Positions 25,601 through 40,600 of a stretch of 64,000 nt of DNA are shown here, piece by piece (position 1 is the first letter of the stretch; every line of letters begins with the position of its first letter). The stretch lies in assembly GCF_009931435.1 (NCBI RefSeq), contig NZ_CP043414.1; one strand, written 5' to 3'. This stretch comes from Escherichia coli (GTDB lineage Bacteria > Pseudomonadota > Gammaproteobacteria > Enterobacterales > Enterobacteriaceae). The position numbers were made by a program.

Positions 25601-28600
25601 TGAATCACTGGTCATCAAAAAAGAGAGTGATATTGAACCGTTAATTGTCGTGAAAGAGTAATAGATGTTGTAGCAACCCCGTACTGATTATGAAGAATAA
25701 TCAGTGCGGGGATTAATCAAAATATTCAATATTTATATATTTCAATGTCTATTCATTTTATATGTGAATATATTAACCAGCAGAATACCTGTGTTCTAAT
25801 TATTTTTAAATATTTTGAATGAATGCTTATTGTTTGATACCCAAGAAATAACTCTCTTTTTATCGTTAAAAGATGATATTTCACTTTGCCCGCGCCGTGA
25901 AAGTCACTGATAATGCGTTCGTTCGTAAATTCAAAATGGCGTAATCTAATATATGCTAAATTTATTTGTTGGCCTTGATATATACACAGGGCTTTTGTTA
26001 TTACTTGCTCTGGCATTTGTGTTGTTCTACGAAGCAATCAATGGTTTTCATGACACGGCGAATGCGGTGGCAACCGTTATTTATACTCGTGCCATGCAGC
26101 CACAGCTTGCCGTGGTGATGGCGGCATTTTTTAACTTTTTTGGCGTATTGCTAGGCGGACTTAGCGTTGCCTATGCCATTGTCCATATGTTGCCAACCGA
26201 TTTGTTGCTGAATATGGGGTCAACTCACGGCCTGGCGATGGTCTTTTCCATGCTGCTGGCGGCGATTATCTGGAACCTGGGAACGTGGTTCTTTGGTTTA
26301 CCGGCCTCCAGTTCGCATACCTTGATTGGTGCGATTATCGGCATCGGTTTAACCAACGCGCTTTTAACCGGCTCATCGGTGATGGATGCGTTAAACCTGC
26401 GTGAAGTGACCAAAATTTTCTCCTCGCTGATTGTTTCCCCTATCGTCGGCCTGGTCATTGCGGGAGGCCTGATATTCCTGCTGCGCCGCTACTGGAGCGG
26501 GACGAAAAAGCGTGACCGTATTCACCGCATTCCGGAAGATCGCAAAAAGAAAAAAGGCAAACGTAAGCCACCATTCTGGACGCGTATTGCGCTGATTGTT
26601 TCCGCTGCGGGCGTGGCGTTTTCGCACGGCGCGAACGACGGACAGAAAGGGATCGGCTTGGTGATGCTGGTACTGGTGGGGATTGCTCCTGCTGGTTTCG
26701 TCGTCAATATGAATGCGTCCGGCTATGAAATTACCCGTACCCGCGATGCCGTCACCAACTTTGAACACTATCTGCAACAGCATCCTGAACTGCCGCAGAA
26801 GTTGATTGCGATGGAACCTCCATTGCCTGCGGCATCGACTGATGGCACGCAAGTAACGGAGTTTCATTGTCATCCGGCAAATACCTTTGATGCGATTGCG
26901 CGCGTTAAAACGATGTTGCCAGGTAATATGGAAAGCTACGAACCGTTAAGCGTGAGTCAGCGCAGCCAGCTGCGCCGCATTATGCTGTGCATCTCTGATA
27001 CCTCTGCGAAGCTGGCGAAACTGCCAGGCGTCAGTAAAGAAGATCAGAACCTGTTGAAAAAACTGCGCAGTGATATGTTAAGCACCATTGAGTACGCTCC
27101 GGTGTGGATCATCATGGCGGTAGCACTGGCGCTCGGCATTGGCACCATGATTGGCTGGCGTCGTGTAGCGATGACCATCGGTGAGAAGATTGGTAAGCGC
27201 GGCATGACGTATGCGCAAGGCATGGCGGCACAAATGACGGCGGCAGTGTCTATCGGCCTTGCCAGTTATATTGGGATGCCCGTCTCCACAACGCACGTAC
27301 TCTCATCTGCGGTAGCAGGGACGATGGTGGTGGACGGCGGTGGGTTACAGCGTAAAACGGTAACCAGCATCCTGATGGCGTGGGTGTTTACTTTACCGGC
27401 GGCGATTTTTCTGTCCGGTGGGTTGTACTGGATAGCATTGCAGTTGATTTAACCTTCCTGAAAATGCCCGGTCCTGACGATCGGGCATTTCCATTTTTGA
27501 CTAGTGATAACCACACGCGGTCATAAAATCCGTAATCGCTTTTTCTGCATCAACCAGCACCTTTTCCAGTGGCTGATTGGCGTCGATATCAACCAGTTGT
27601 GCACCACCAAAGGTTAACTGTGGCGTTATGGCAATCTTTCTCGCCAGCGATTCCCGTTTATGGTCGGGTTTACGCGCGCAGGCAACTTCAAGGTCAACAT
27701 TGAGTTTGATAACCAGATCAGGCTTATGGCTCGCCATCCAGTGAAATGCTTTACGTTCCTGGCTTGCCAGCCATGAGACAAACCGGCCGCCTTCAACGTT
27801 AGGTGGGAACACCGTACCATCGTAAGCGCCAGGAATTTGGTCCTGAGGATAACGATCGGTTAAGACAATCAGCCCGCGACGACGGCAGGCGAGCATATGA
27901 CGAAAGCGTAACAGTCGGCGGGCGACGAAAGCGGTGATCACCAGGGCCGGAACCGGACCCGGCAATTTTTTTGCCGTTTTCACTTCATTTTTTTCAATAG
28001 TCTTGTGCAGAGACTTTCCCATCAACGGTAATTTTGTCACTGCACGACCGACATTTCCGGCCTGTTTTCCTAAATGAACTCTTTCGGCAGCACCATATTT
28101 TTCGACAACGGTAATAAGATGTTCACACACCGTTGACTTGCCTGAACCATCGCTACCAATAACGGCAATTAATGGAGGTGTTATTGACTGCATGAATATA
28201 TCCTTAAATTTAAATATCCATCCAAAATATTTATTTGGTTAATATGTTTTTATGAAAGCGTAATTCAGGTCAATGTCACAATTAACCATTGTCACAATAA
28301 GGTTGAACGGATATTCTGAGCACGGACCACGTAATATTCAATACATTATTTGCTGCCGGGTTTTTCGTGAATCAACGTAATATGTCAATAATTAATTCCA
28401 CGCCAGTGCGTGTTATTGCCATTGTAGGATGTGATGGTTCAGGTAAATCGACCCTCACGGCAAGCCTGGTAAATGAACTGGCAGCAACAATGCCAACAGA
28501 ACACATTTATCTCGGGCAATCGTCCGGGCGAATTGGCGAATGGATTTCACAGCTCCCTGTTATTGGCGCACCTTTTGGGCGTTATCTGCGAAGTAAAGCG

Positions 28601-37600: not shown

Positions 37601-40600
37601 TAACCGTCCAGCAGATAACCGAGGTCGCCGGTATCTAACCAGCCCGTCGCGGCAATCTCGTCTTGCGAAACCTGGTCGCCAAAGTAACCGCTCATCAGGC
37701 TGGGGCCGGAGATGCAAATATGGCCTACCACACGTTCCGCGACCGGCATACCTGCTTCATTGCGGATTTCAATGCCATGTTCCGGCAACGCTTTACCGCA
37801 GTTGACGAAAGTCGATACGGCGCGTGTTTCAGCACCCGGCGCGACGGCTTTGCCCTGATATTCAAGGATGTCGCGATCCACTTCGTTAACCACAACCCCG
37901 GAGGCTTCATCAGAGAAGCTGACAGCCAGCGCATTTTCTGCCAGTCCGTAGCACGGCATGAAAGTTTTATCGTCAAAGTTAACCTGACGGAAACATTCAG
38001 CGAATTGATGGAGTTGTTCTGCGGAGATCGGCTCAGCACCAATACCAGCAACGCGCCAGCAGGAAAGATCCAGTTCAGCGAGATCTTTTTCATTCACGCG
38101 GCGCTGGCACAATTCATAGCCAAACGGCGGCGCAACAGAAACGGTGCCGCGATTTTTACTGATCAATTTAAGCCATTGCAGAGGACGCATGGCAAAATCC
38201 TGAGTGCGCAAATAATCTACTGAGAGCTGCGTGGCGACGGGGGTCAGGAGAAAGCCGACCAGTCCCATATCATGGTAGAAAGGCAGCCAGGAGACGCAGC
38301 GGTCGCCAGGGCGTAATTTAATGCCATCGTGGCTTATAGCACGTAGATTAGCCATCACTTCGCGATGGGTGATAATGACGCCACGGGGAAAACGGGTGCT
38401 GCCGGAGGTGTACTGGAGGTAGGCGATATCGTTCGGAACTGGACGCTGGAGTACAACATCGGCTTCCGGTAATGCCTTAAACCAGGCGTGGCTTAAAACA
38501 TGTAATTCGGGGTTGTTATGCGTAGCAGCATTGACCAGTGGCAACCACTCATCACCAGTGATAATGGCTGCGGGCTGGCAACTTGCCAGTAAACCCTGCA
38601 GTTTGGCGCTCCAGGAATCCCGCTGACCGACGCCCATTGGAATTGCCAACGGGACGGCGACTAAGCCGGCATACTGGCAGGCAAAAAAAGCCTCTACAAA
38701 CCCGCTACTCGTTTCGGCAATCAGCGCCACGCGATCGCCTTTTTTCAGATTCAGTGATAACAACCGCTTCGCACCAGCTTCGGCACGCGCTTTTAACGTC
38801 TGATATTCCAGTTGATCTTCAAGTTGGCAACGTCTGTCATAAAAATTCATTCCGGCGCTACTCAGAGCGGCGTAGTCCAAAGCATCAACCAGCGTTGGAA
38901 AATCGGCATAGCGCATAGGTAGGGAATGCGTAAAGATGTTATTAGACATATACACCACGAAAAAAATTGGATATCAGAAATAAAATGACAATAATGCGGT
39001 GGATTATATAGGCATAAAAGATAAATGAGATAGTATTTTCATCGGTGCGATATTGAACATTGATTTAAATAATAGGTTTGGCTTTGTTGTTTTTATTGTG
39101 AATGATATTTAATTTATGAATATATTAAGAAGAAGCCTTGTTTGGTTGCCTTAAATCGACAAAAGGCATTGAGGCGCTTCTGTGTAGTCTCTGACCTTAT
39201 CTTAATTATTAATAAATACTATTTATTCTTTGTTTGTATTCATTGGGTTGATTATTAAGATGCCGTTCGTTGCTGTTGCAATCTGTTTGTCACCGTTAAT
39301 TATTTGTTATCCACAGAGATATGGAATGCGATCTGCTGATGATTAAAATTGAAAAAGTAATTAATAAAAATGACCTTAAGGCATTTATCGCTTTTCCGTC
39401 ATCACTTTATCCCGATGATCCAAACTGGATACCCCCTTTGTTCATTGAACGCAGCGAGCATTTGTCGGCGAAGAATCCGGGGACGGACCATATTATCTGG
39501 CAGGCGTGGGTAGCAAAAAAAGCGGGGCAGATAGTCGGGCGGATTACCGCGCAAATCGATACCTTGCACCGCGAGCGTTACGGTGACGATACCGGTCATT
39601 TTGGCATGATTGACGCCATTGATGATCCGCAGGTTTTTGCCGCGTTGTTTGGCGCAGCGGAAGCATGGTTGAAGTTACAAGGCGCAAGTAAGATCAGCGG
39701 GCCTTTCAGCCTGAATATCAATCAGGAAAGCGGATTACTGATTGAAGGTTTCGACACTCCGCCCTGTGCGATGATGCCGCACGGTAAACCGTGGTATGCC
39801 GCGCATATTGAACAATTGGGTTATCACAAAGGTATTGATTTACTGGCGTGGTGGATGCAACGAACCGATCTCACGTTCTCTCCGGCGCTAAAAAAACTGA
39901 TGGATCAGGTGCGCAAAAAGGTGACCATTCGCTGCATCAAGCGCCAGCGGTTTGCCGAAGAGATGCTGATCCTGCGTGAGATTTTCAACTCTGGCTGGCA
40001 GCACAACTGGGGATTTGTGCCGTTTACCGAACATGAATTTGCGACCATGGGCGATCAACTTAAATATCTGGTGCCGGACGATATGATCTACATCGCTGAG
40101 ATTGGTTCTGCACCCTGCGCGTTTATAGTCGGCTTGCCGAACATCAACGAGGCGATTGCCGATCTGAACGGATCGCTCTTTCCCTTCGGCTGGGCAAAAT
40201 TGCTGTGGCGCTTAAAAGTCAGCGGTGTGCGAACTGCGCGAGTGCCGCTGATGGGCGTGCGTGACGAGTATCAGTTCAGCCGCATCGGCCCGGTGATTGC
40301 GCTGTTATTGATTGAAGCCTTACGCGATCCGTTTGCTCGCCGGAAGATCGATGCGCTGGAGATGTCATGGATCCTCGAAACCAATACAGGCATGAATAAC
40401 ATGCTGGAACGCATTGGAGCGGAGCCGTACAAGCGTTACCGATTGTATGAAAAGCAGATTTGATGGCAGTCACCCCTGCTTCATCTCCAGCGGCACCGCC
40501 GAGCGAATCAAATGGTGGCCTTCCAGTTCGATATCGTGGAGATTCTTTTTCACGGTCCGCACATGATCACGTGCGGCGCGCTGGGCGACGTGCGGCAGTC

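What the first reader, a model, noticed from the sequence alone, without database searches (positions are those of the whole stretch)
27501..40463. Candidate sphingolipid-type lipid synthesis and export locus between pitB and glcC
Within about 13 kb the sequence encodes a serine-palmitoyltransferase-like alpha-oxoamine synthase, a dedicated ACP, a fatty acyl-AMP ligase, an SDR reductase, a putative N-acyltransferase (yghO), three paralogous P-loop kinase-like proteins (yghRST), a MOP flippase (yghQ), an LptF/LptG-like permease pair and a YtfJ-like periplasmic protein. Together this looks like a self-contained pathway to build a long-chain-base or ceramide-like lipid, possibly phosphorylate it, and move it across the envelope. 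E. coli is not generally regarded as a sphingolipid producer, and the known genes in this locus are uncharacterized 'ygh' genes, so the function would be new for this organism.
Basis: partly seen in the sequence, partly recalled or inferred. Interest (0 to 1): 0.88.

Follow-up and report, generated by a model that had tools for sequence, protein, structure and literature searches.

The report
E. coli sphingolipid locus, already described
This 13-gene block really is a ceramide (sphingolipid) synthesis and export locus carried by most E. coli, but its core enzymes were already characterised in 2021-22; only a five-gene kinase, flippase and helical-protein sub-module remains unexplained.

Summary

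The sphingolipid reading is correct but not new. The locus matches E. coli BL21(DE3) ECD_02850-02854 and its neighbours at 95-100% protein identity. The BL21 AasR, AcpR and Spt were shown to make 3-oxo-sphinganine (PMC9386255). RefSeq already names the gene spt. A 2026 preprint draws the E. coli UTI89 "sphingolipid operons" with the LptF2/LptG2 pair.

The full locus is in 4051 of 5426 complete E. coli genomes. It is cut by IS5 in K-12. All 13 genes are under purifying selection (dN/dS 0.03-0.13).

The native E. coli lipid and its head group remain unknown. The Caulobacter CpgB-type ceramide kinase is absent from the locus.

The parts
27501..28193 (-). yghT: soluble, basic P-loop kinase-like protein (230 aa), paralogue of YghS and YghR
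   Evidence: ORF. Invariant GxDGxGKST, DR[YF]PQ and RKPDH motifs. Scores only 25.7 bits on the dTMP-kinase model TIGR00041, cut-off 83. pI 9.6 with no TM segment.
28194..28366 (.). Divergent yghT / yghS intergenic region, about 40% GC; presumed promoters
   Evidence: Composition. yghS is H-NS-associated and rises 3.1-fold on SlyA overexpression in K-12 (PMC5797941). The promoter scan was not above chance.
28367..29080 (+). yghS: P-loop kinase-like protein (237 aa)
   Evidence: The AF2 model (pLDDT 69) is closest to dTMP, adenylate and deoxynucleoside kinases, TM about 0.5.
29111..29869 (+). yghR: P-loop kinase-like protein (252 aa)
29915..31270 (+). yghQ: MOP-superfamily (Polysacc_synt) flippase, multi-pass membrane protein
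   Evidence: Pfam PF13440 at 1.3e-5. NCBIfam MOP flippase at 2.7e-7. About 8 hydrophobic segments. Same InterPro family as the Caulobacter candidate sphingolipid flippase CC_1166.
31270..32094 (+).
32103..32666 (+). YtfJ-family periplasmic protein (N-terminal signal-like segment), paralogue of chromosomal ytfJ
   Evidence: TIGR01626 at 209 bits, cut-off 151. Hydrophobic N-terminus. Present in 48 of 77 scanned loci; LptF2 in 44 and LptG2 in 46; directly upstream of lptF2 in the window, BL21(DE3) and Serratia.
32696..33766 (+). LptF paralogue (LptF2)
   Evidence: TIGR04407 at 323 bits, cut-off 230. Caulobacter LptF2/G2 are needed for sphingolipid transport and bind housekeeping LptB.
33763..34842 (+). 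LptG paralogue (LptG2)
   Evidence: TIGR04408 at 307 bits, cut-off 240.
34877..36049 (-). spt: serine palmitoyltransferase
   Evidence: NF047599 at 599 bits, cut-off 500. Best PDB relative is Sphingomonas SPT at 378 bits. Catalytic residues kept. 97.7% identical to the biochemically tested SPT of BL21(DE3).
36049..36297 (-). acpR: dedicated acyl carrier protein
   Evidence: DLGLES motif with Ser38. 100% identical to BL21 AcpR, which was shown to carry 4'-phosphopantetheine.
36329..37243 (-). cerR/epi: NDUFA9-like extended SDR, candidate 3-keto reductase
   Evidence: PDB sequence relatives include complex I NDUFA9. Published 34% identity to Caulobacter CC_1164.
37240..38949 (-). aasR: fatty acyl-AMP ligase acting as acyl-AcpR synthetase
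   Evidence: NF006624 at 873 bits, cut-off 600. 97.6% identical to BL21 AasR, which works with AcpR and Spt in vivo.
38950..39320 (.). AT-rich (about 34% GC) divergent aasR / yghO intergenic region; presumed silenced promoters
   Evidence: Empty-vector BL21(DE3) makes no detectable 3-oxo-sphinganine.
39321..40463 (+). yghO: homologue of the bacterial ceramide synthase (bCerS/Aca, CC_1154)
   Evidence: Published 44% identity, E 1e-107 and 98% coverage between BL21 YghO and CC_1154. No Pfam, NCBIfam or PDB hit. Co-located with spt in Rhodanobacteraceae and Carnimonas.

Best explanation
This is the Enterobacterales version of the proteobacterial sphingolipid locus.

Shown for near-identical BL21(DE3) proteins: AasR loads a fatty acid onto the dedicated carrier AcpR, and Spt condenses acyl-AcpR with L-serine to give 3-oxo-sphinganine.

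Inferred from homology to Caulobacter enzymes: YghO (bCerS) N-acylates the product and the NDUFA9-like SDR CerR reduces the 3-keto group, giving dihydroceramide.

Inferred from conserved gene linkage only: the three basic, soluble P-loop kinases YghT/S/R, the MOP flippase YghQ and the basic CHAD-like 274-aa protein act as one unit. I propose they add phosphate-containing polarity to the lipid or its head-group precursor on the cytoplasmic face and then flip it across the inner membrane.

Inferred by analogy with Caulobacter LptF2/G2: the LptF2/LptG2 pair, powered by the housekeeping LptB, extracts the lipid for transfer to the outer membrane. The periplasmic YtfJ-like protein would be an accessory to that step.

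The locus is transcriptionally silent in standard culture, probably through H-NS, so the native product has not been seen.
For: Gene content and family scores.

Spt is closer to SPT than to Kbl or BioF and keeps its catalytic residues.

Identity to BL21(DE3) ECD_02850-54 and neighbours is 95-100%.

Published biochemistry: AcpR carries 4'-phosphopantetheine, and AasR + AcpR + Spt from E. coli give 3-oxo-sphinganine (PMC9386255).

Published identities to the Caulobacter enzymes: Spt 53%, YghO/bCerS 44%, AasR 42%, AcpR 41%, CerR 34%.

LptF2/G2 function in Caulobacter, and the E. coli UTI89 locus drawn as a sphingolipid operon.

All 13 genes are under purifying selection, dN/dS 0.03-0.13 against E. 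whittamii.

Module linkage: the CHAD-like gene was found in 77 loci. YghQ lies within 10 kb in 67 of them, kinase paralogues in 55-63 and Spt in 48. The order is aasR-cerR-acpR-spt-yghQ-CHADl in Rhodanobacter and Luteibacter, and spt-CHADl in Carnimonas. In Sphingomonadales, Zymomonas and Acetobacteraceae only the kinase-flippase-CHADl unit is kept together.

Silencing.
Against: I found no report of a sphingolipid in any native E. coli lipidome.

The substrates of YghT/S/R are unknown. Their nearest relatives are nucleotide kinases, at weak scores.

More distant homologous kinase domains are fused to GT4 glycosyltransferases, MOP flippases or a nucleotidyltransferase-like domain in polysaccharide-type contexts. 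So they could make a soluble head-group donor rather than phosphorylate the lipid.

The CHAD-like assignment rests on a predicted fold only.

K-12 lacks the core and shows no obvious defect, and about 25% of complete E. coli genomes lack an intact locus.
Confidence: 0.8

Rival explanations
1. The yghT/S/R-yghQ-CHAD-like unit is an independent glycan or glycolipid module, for example phosphorylation and flipping of an undecaprenyl-linked sugar. It would merely neighbour the ceramide genes in Gammaproteobacteria and have no role in sphingolipid biology.
For: YghQ belongs to the polysaccharide-type MOP (Wzx-like) family. Distant homologues of the kinase domain are fused to GT4 glycosyltransferases and MOP flippases. 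In metagenomic locus L007 the unit sits with a GT4 gene, a histidine phosphatase and a MatE gene, with no spt in 15.7 kb. In Sphingomonadales and Acetobacteraceae the unit is not next to spt.
Against: The identifiable lineages carrying the CHAD-like gene belong to groups for which the papers read here report or predict sphingolipid synthesis, or their locus carries spt (spt orthologues of S. wittichii, Z. mobilis and G. oxydans). This is incomplete: whole genomes could not be scanned, 29 of the 77 loci show no spt within 10 kb, and L006 and L007 are metagenomic contigs of unknown taxon. The sphingolipid genes of Sphingomonadales are known to be scattered. In Rhodanobacter, Luteibacter and Carnimonas the flippase and/or CHAD-like genes follow spt directly, in the same orientation. 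The Caulobacter locus holds a flippase of the same family whose mutants share cofitness with sphingolipid genes.
Confidence: 0.15
2. In E. coli the locus is a cryptic remnant that is never expressed and makes no lipid in nature.
For: There is no detectable product in unmodified BL21(DE3). H-NS is associated with yghS in K-12. IS5 and IS26 truncations are tolerated. An intact locus is missing from about a quarter of complete genomes.
Against: All 13 ORFs are intact and show dN/dS of 0.03-0.13. The full locus is present in 4051 of 5426 genomes and throughout Enterobacterales. The cloned E. coli enzymes are active.
Confidence: 0.05
3. The pathway makes a non-sphingolipid acyl-amino-acid-derived product, such as a sulfonolipid-type or CAI-1-type compound.
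For: The alpha-oxoamine synthase family is versatile. The equivalent of Arg378 in S. paucimobilis SPT is Leu here.
Against: The E. coli enzyme incorporated L-serine with palmitoyl-AcpR into a product that migrates with 3-oxo-sphinganine. It scores far better on SPT models than on cysteate acyltransferase, CqsA, Kbl or BioF.
Confidence: 0.03

Closest known systems
E. coli BL21(DE3) ECD_02850-ECD_02854 (yghO/aca, aasR, epi, acpR, spt), Padilla-Gomez et al. 2022, PMC9386255
   Same: It is the same locus at the same chromosomal position, with the same gene order and 95-100% protein identity. AcpR, AasR and Spt were characterised there.
   Different: The window is a different allele: about 96.7% DNA identity to most E. 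coli and 99.3% to nine genomes. That paper deals only with the five ceramide genes, not with yghT/S/R, yghQ, the 274-aa gene, the YtfJ-like gene or lptF2/G2.
Caulobacter crescentus sphingolipid region CC_1152-CC_1168 (spt, acpR, cerR, aasR, bCerS, cpgABC and further head-group genes, lptF2/G2/C2, flippase CC_1166)
   Same: Both have the five ceramide genes (34-53% identity), an LptF/LptG paralogue pair, and a Polysacc_synt-family flippase.
   Different: E. coli has no CpgB-type (DAG-kinase fold) ceramide kinase, no CpgA/C, no CC_1152/1153/1158, no CC_1167 glycerophosphotransferase and no LptC2. Instead it has three dTMP-kinase-like P-loop proteins, a CHAD-like protein and a YtfJ-like periplasmic protein. 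The head group is therefore probably different from ceramide (di)phosphoglycerate.
LptB2FG lipopolysaccharide extractor
   Same: LptF2 and LptG2 pass the NCBIfam LptF and LptG equivalog cut-offs.
   Different: They are second copies encoded inside a lipid-synthesis locus with no LptB, LptC or LptA of their own. In Caulobacter the equivalents serve sphingolipid rather than LPS transport and borrow LptB.
CHAD domains (Ricinus CHAD 6qv5, Chlorobium 3e0s, Streptomyces PptA 6rn5, E. coli YgiF 5a61), known from my own recollection of the literature as polyphosphate-binding helical domains
   Different: There is no Pfam CHAD hit for any of 15 members, and no profile-sequence similarity to YgiF. No CYTH partner is present. 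The genomic context is lipid synthesis rather than polyphosphate metabolism.
dTMP kinase / NMP kinase family
   Same: Shares the GxDGxGKST P-loop and a DR[YF] motif, with the best weak sequence and fold matches.
   Different: Scores of 25-31 bits fall far below the 83-bit cut-off. The proteins are about 40 residues longer, carry a family-specific RKPDH motif, occur as three paralogues and are linked to a flippase. The RefSeq name 'dTMP kinase' is not supported.

Membership tests
Bacterial serine palmitoyltransferase (alpha-oxoamine synthase subfamily) | Scores above the curated SPT equivalog cut-off, and better than on BioF, Kbl or ALAS models | tested here: met
   NF047599 at 599 bits (cut-off 500). 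The BioF and Kbl models score 336 and 299 bits, below their own cut-offs. PDB: SPT 378 bits, Kbl 204, BioF 176.
Bacterial serine palmitoyltransferase (alpha-oxoamine synthase subfamily) | PLP-binding Lys and the catalytic His/Asp/His and Arg390 equivalents | tested here: met
   The alignment to 2jg2 keeps DADSHAS, VDEAHS, GTFSKS and LLRCS. Only the Arg378 equivalent differs; it is Leu.
Bacterial serine palmitoyltransferase (alpha-oxoamine synthase subfamily) | Condenses L-serine with a long-chain acyl thioester to give 3-oxo-sphinganine | not testable with these tools
   Published for the 97.7%-identical BL21(DE3) enzyme (PMC9386255).
AcpR/AasR dedicated acyl-carrier system of 'Rhodobacteria' sphingolipid synthesis | Small ACP with a phosphopantetheine serine, encoded next to spt, plus a FAAL-type acyl-ACP synthetase | tested here: met
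   The ACP overlaps the spt start, has a DLGLES motif, and is 100% identical to the AcpR of BL21(DE3) that was shown to be labelled with beta-alanine. The FAAL model NF006624 scores 873 bits.
Bacterial ceramide synthase bCerS (CC_1154 / Aca) | Full-length homology to the Caulobacter enzyme | tested here: inconclusive
Published BLAST of BL21 YghO against CC_1154 gives 44% identity, E 1e-107 and 98% coverage. The window YghO is 97.9% identical to BL21 over the part I fetched. No Pfam, NCBIfam or PDB model exists for it.
Ceramide reductase CerR (NDUFA9-like SDR) | Extended SDR with an N-terminal GxxGxxG motif and NDUFA9 similarity, encoded between aasR and acpR | tested here: met
   The protein starts VTGATGFIG. 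PDB relatives include NDUFA9 at 3e-11. The gene position matches Caulobacter and BL21. Published 34% identity to CC_1164.
LptF/LptG permeases | Above the equivalog cut-off for each; six-TM architecture; adjacent, overlapping genes | tested here: met
   323 and 307 bits against cut-offs of 230 and 240. Hydrophobic segments lie at both ends of each protein. The two genes overlap by 4 nt.
Caulobacter ceramide-phosphoglycerate (CPG) head-group pathway | CpgB ceramide kinase with a DAG-kinase (LCB5/DAGK_cat) domain in or near the locus | tested here: not met
   None of the 13 proteins hits a DAG-kinase family. CpgB has the LCB5/DAGK fold. The rest of the genome was not searched.
dTMP kinase (the RefSeq name of YghS and YghT) | Score above the TIGR00041 or NF005923 cut-off | tested here: not met
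   25-31 bits against a cut-off of 83 for TIGR00041, and 17-26 bits against 193 for NF005923.
Polyphosphate kinase 2 (considered because of the CHAD-like neighbour) | Any match to PPK2 models or structures | tested here: not met
   No PPK2 family appears among the NCBIfam rows listed at E <= 10 (all rows for YghR; the best 25 of up to 53 for YghS and YghT). None is among the 60 best PDB profile hits or the 50 best Foldseek hits.
CHAD domain (Pfam PF05235) | Sequence-profile match | tested here: not met
   No Pfam hit at E <= 10 for the window protein or any of 15 homologues. hhalign against E. coli YgiF gives probability 0.2%.
CHAD domain (Pfam PF05235) | Two-bundle helical fold with conserved His and basic residues | tested here: met
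MOP (Wzx/Polysacc_synt) flippases | Profile match and a multi-pass membrane topology | tested here: met
   PF13440 at 1.3e-5. NF007773 at 2.7e-7 over residues 18-437. About 8 hydrophobic segments. The scores are weak, so this is a divergent member.

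The most novel reading that the evidence does not exclude
yghT/S/R, yghQ and the CHAD-like 274-aa protein form a previously unrecognised head-group and flipping module for sphingolipids. It is conserved across sphingolipid-producing Alpha- and Gammaproteobacteria. In Enterobacterales it would take the place of the Caulobacter CpgABC pathway, so that E. 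coli and its relatives could make a differently phosphorylated anionic ceramide that is exported to the outer membrane by LptB-LptF2G2.
Probability: 0.4. Interest if true: 0.7.

Novelty: already known. Interest (0 to 1): 0.35.

Why it matters
Most E. coli strains, including BL21(DE3) and uropathogenic UTI89, carry a complete ceramide pathway kept intact by selection. K-12 has lost it, so the standard picture of the E. coli envelope may be incomplete for natural isolates.

The open questions are practical ones. When is the locus expressed? What is the final lipid? Does it change outer-membrane properties such as polymyxin or detergent sensitivity, or host recognition, as in Caulobacter?

The conserved kinase, flippase and CHAD-like unit gives concrete candidates for the missing head-group and inner-membrane flipping steps. 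Those steps are also unresolved in Sphingomonas, Zymomonas and the acetic acid bacteria.

Tried and rejected
Promoter and terminator scans of 27300-40700 gave counts no higher than shuffled sequence.

The Rfam scan of 27000-41500 found nothing at E <= 0.1.

The repeat search found only chance pairs plus the P-loop-coding regions of divergent yghT and yghS.

I tested whether YghR/S/T might be PPK2-like polyphosphate kinases, which would fit the CHAD-like neighbour. No listed NCBIfam, PDB-profile or Foldseek row supports it.

I tested sequence homology of the 274-aa family to a real CHAD protein, E. coli YgiF, and found none.

The AF2 model of YghS was only moderate (pLDDT 69). It gave weak matches that do not identify a substrate.

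YghO and the YtfJ-like protein have no solved relatives.

The two key subscription papers (Olea-Ozuna 2021; Stankeviciute 2022) are not held in the library, so I cite them only through papers that quote them.

I did not fetch the Caulobacter locus. The single genome-collection scan went on the distribution of the 274-aa family instead.

Full report
**Observation**

Window 27501-40463 contains 13 intact open reading frames between pitB (25953-27452) and glcC. They lie in four transcriptional blocks:
- yghT alone on the minus strand.
- yghS, yghR, yghQ, a 274-aa ORF, a YtfJ-family gene, an LptF-like gene and an LptG-like gene on the plus strand (28367-34842).
- spt, ACP, SDR and fatty acyl-AMP ligase on the minus strand (34877-38949).
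- yghO on the plus strand.

The closest complete genome (99.3% identical) has the same gene models, and RefSeq already names one of them "spt: serine palmitoyltransferase".

- Spt: 599 bits on NF047599 (cut-off 500).
- LptF-like and LptG-like: 323 and 307 bits (cut-offs 230 and 240).
- YtfJ family: 209 bits (cut-off 151).
- Fatty acyl-AMP ligase: 873 bits (cut-off 600).

YghT, YghS and YghR are genuine paralogues. They are 36-41% identical and share invariant GxDGxGKST, DR[YF]PQ and RKPDH motifs.

**Is it a sphingolipid locus?**

Yes. The alpha-oxoamine synthase is far closer to solved Sphingomonas serine palmitoyltransferases (378 bits) than to Kbl (about 204) or BioF (about 176). It keeps the PLP lysine and the His/Asp/His and Arg390 equivalents. 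Only the Arg378 equivalent differs; it is Leu. The SDR's solved relatives include complex I subunit NDUFA9, as reported for Caulobacter CerR.

The locus is the one already studied in E. coli BL21(DE3). I fetched NC_012971 2989282-3002257 and found the same 13 genes in the same order next to pitB. Protein identities to the window are 95-100%: AcpR 100%, Spt 97.7%, AasR 97.6%.

Padilla-Gomez et al. 2022 (PMC9386255) showed three things. The BL21 AcpR carries 4'-phosphopantetheine. Co-expression of E. coli AasR, AcpR and Spt yields 3-oxo-sphinganine. The E. coli Spt prefers palmitoyl-AcpR over palmitoyl-CoA. They proposed ECD_02852 as the reductase and yghO (ECD_02850) as the N-acyltransferase. 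Their supplementary table gives identities to the Caulobacter enzymes of 53% (Spt), 44% (bCerS/YghO), 42% (AasR), 41% (AcpR) and 34% (CerR).

A 2026 preprint (10.64898/2026.04.12.717747) shows that the Caulobacter LptF2/LptG2 paralogues are needed for sphingolipid transport and use the housekeeping LptB. Its Figure 2B draws the "sphingolipid operons" of E. coli UTI89. It also notes that lptF2/G2 occur in many alpha- and gammaproteobacterial sphingolipid loci.

**Distribution and selection**

The 13-kb query matches 4821 of 5426 complete E. coli genomes. In 4051 of them the match covers at least 80% of the query.

K-12-derived strains have an IS5 element that replaces everything from the 3' end of yghQ to the acyl-AMP ligase. 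A chicken isolate has an independent IS26 truncation inside the YtfJ-like gene.

Against E. whittamii, all 13 genes give dN/dS between 0.03 and 0.13. The locus is therefore maintained by selection and is not a decaying relic.

Unmodified BL21(DE3) makes no detectable 3-oxo-sphinganine. In K-12, yghS is listed as H-NS-associated in two ChIP data sets and rises 3.1-fold when SlyA is overexpressed. I found no paper reporting a native E. coli sphingolipid.

**The uncharacterised part**

The Caulobacter head-group pathway is not present here. CpgB, the bacterial ceramide kinase, has a DAG-kinase (LCB5) fold, and no protein in this locus does.

YghT/S/R are soluble and basic (pI about 9.6). They are only remotely like dTMP kinases: 25-31 bits against a cut-off of 83, and a moderate AF2 model with TM about 0.5 to dTMP, adenylate and deoxynucleoside kinases. 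The RefSeq label "dTMP kinase" is not justified.

**Comparative genomics of that part**

A scan of one genome per species for the 274-aa family returned 77 loci. They come from:
- many Enterobacterales (Escherichia, Pseudocitrobacter, Hafnia, Serratia, Pantoea, Erwinia, Citrobacter, Pluralibacter, Rosenbergiella, Tatumella, Mangrovibacter and others);
- Rhodanobacteraceae (Luteibacter, Rhodanobacter, Dyella);
- Carnimonas;
- Sphingomonadales (Sphingopyxis, Sphingobium, Novosphingobium, Sphingomonas, Zymomonas);
- Acetobacteraceae (Bombella, Acetobacter, Gluconobacter).

I ran tblastn with the 13 window proteins against these loci. Within 10 kb of the CHAD-like gene, YghQ is present in 67 of 77 loci and kinase paralogues in 55-63. 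Spt, AcpR and CerR are each present in 48, AasR in 47, the YtfJ-like gene in 48, LptF2 and LptG2 in 44-46, and YghO in 42.

In Rhodanobacter and Luteibacter the order is aasR-cerR-acpR-spt-yghQ-CHADl, contiguous and in one orientation. In Carnimonas the CHAD-like gene directly follows spt. In Sphingomonadales, Zymomonas and Acetobacteraceae the kinases (two or three, with recognisable S-, R- and T-type orthologues in Sphingobium and Sphingopyxis), yghQ and the CHAD-like gene stay together as a unit. The ceramide genes lie elsewhere, as already known for those genomes.

The Caulobacter candidate flippase CC_1166 belongs to the same Polysacc_synt family as YghQ. None of the papers I read mentions the kinases or the 274-aa protein in connection with sphingolipids.

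**Caution on the kinases**

A profile of YghT/S/R found 2588 relatives among 1.84 billion representative proteins. Beyond the stand-alone clade, the domain is fused to a nucleotidyltransferase-like N-terminal domain (PF14907 in 5 of 18 sampled), to MOP flippases and to a GT4 glycosyltransferase. The family is therefore generally tied to flippase-dependent glycoconjugate pathways.

Its members could phosphorylate a soluble head-group precursor rather than the lipid itself. One metagenomic locus (L007) has the unit without spt in view. Another (L006) has it beside a DAGK_cat gene and a PMT_2 transferase.

**Mechanism proposed**

- Shown, for near-identical proteins: AasR charges AcpR, and Spt makes 3-oxo-sphinganine.
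- Inferred by homology: YghO acylates and CerR reduces, giving dihydroceramide.
- Inferred by linkage only: YghT/S/R, YghQ and the CHAD-like protein give the lipid a phosphate-containing head group on the cytoplasmic face and flip it.
- Inferred by analogy with Caulobacter: LptB-LptF2G2 extract it towards the outer membrane, with the YtfJ-like periplasmic protein as an accessory.

I put the core at about 0.9. I put the module being sphingolipid-dedicated at about 0.6, and direct lipid phosphorylation at about 0.35.

**Verdict**

The remaining value is the conserved, undescribed kinase-flippase-CHAD-like unit and the still-unknown native product in E. coli.

Noticed in passing
window 27501-29080 (yghT, yghS): RefSeq/PGAP names YghS and YghT 'dTMP kinase', but they score only 25-26 bits on TIGR00041 (cut-off 83) and carry family-specific motifs. 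The product name looks like an over-annotation.
   Followed up: yes
L005 (K-12-derived strain) 4916-7145; L088 (strain EC17CM13) 10601-11599: Two independent insertion-sequence truncations of the locus. IS5 removes the yghQ 3' end through aasR in K-12 derivatives. IS26 cuts inside the YtfJ-like gene in a chicken isolate, and the sequence beyond it continues into an integrase / tRNA-Phe region.
   Followed up: partly
window 34877-36049 (spt): The residue equivalent to Arg378 of Sphingomonas paucimobilis SPT (the RPPATP loop) is Leu here (ILPPAAP). All other catalytic residues are kept, and the near-identical BL21 enzyme is active.
   Followed up: partly
window 27501-40463: The window allele is unusual. 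Only 9 of 4821 matching genomes are at least 99% identical, and most are about 96-97%. The 274-aa gene is the most divergent, at 95% protein identity to BL21 against 97-100% for the others.
   Followed up: no
L029, L033 (Pluralibacter); L052, L058 (Luteibacter) 10001-11763: There are extra copies of the CHAD-like gene. Pluralibacter has an orphan second copy with none of the other locus genes within 10 kb. Luteibacter has a tandem duplicate.
   Followed up: no
proteins P0285-P0390, P0333, P0357, P0371: The YghRST-type kinase domain occurs as the C-terminal half of about 500-aa metagenomic proteins whose N-terminal half is a PF14907 nucleotidyltransferase-like domain. It is also fused to MOP flippases and to a GT4 glycosyltransferase.
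   Followed up: partly
L002 2279-2644 (Serratia); L004 11596-12730 (Carnimonas); L006 13535-16090: Additional lipid-type genes flank the locus in other genera. Serratia and Carnimonas have a DgkA-type (DAGK_prokar) kinase, and Carnimonas an Asp/Arg-hydroxylase-family gene. One metagenomic contig has a DAGK_cat (CpgB-like) kinase plus a PMT_2 transferase.
   Followed up: no
protein P0152: In some E. coli a 280-aa product annotated GspM contains 81% of the 274-aa protein at 94% identity. This suggests a deletion that fuses the nearby type II secretion cluster to this gene.
   Followed up: no
K-12 yghQ (literature, PMC8170033): Chlorhexidine-adapted K-12 lines repeatedly acquired SNVs in yghQ, and a yghQ deletion doubled the chlorhexidine MIC, even though K-12 yghQ is the IS5-truncated copy.
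   Followed up: no
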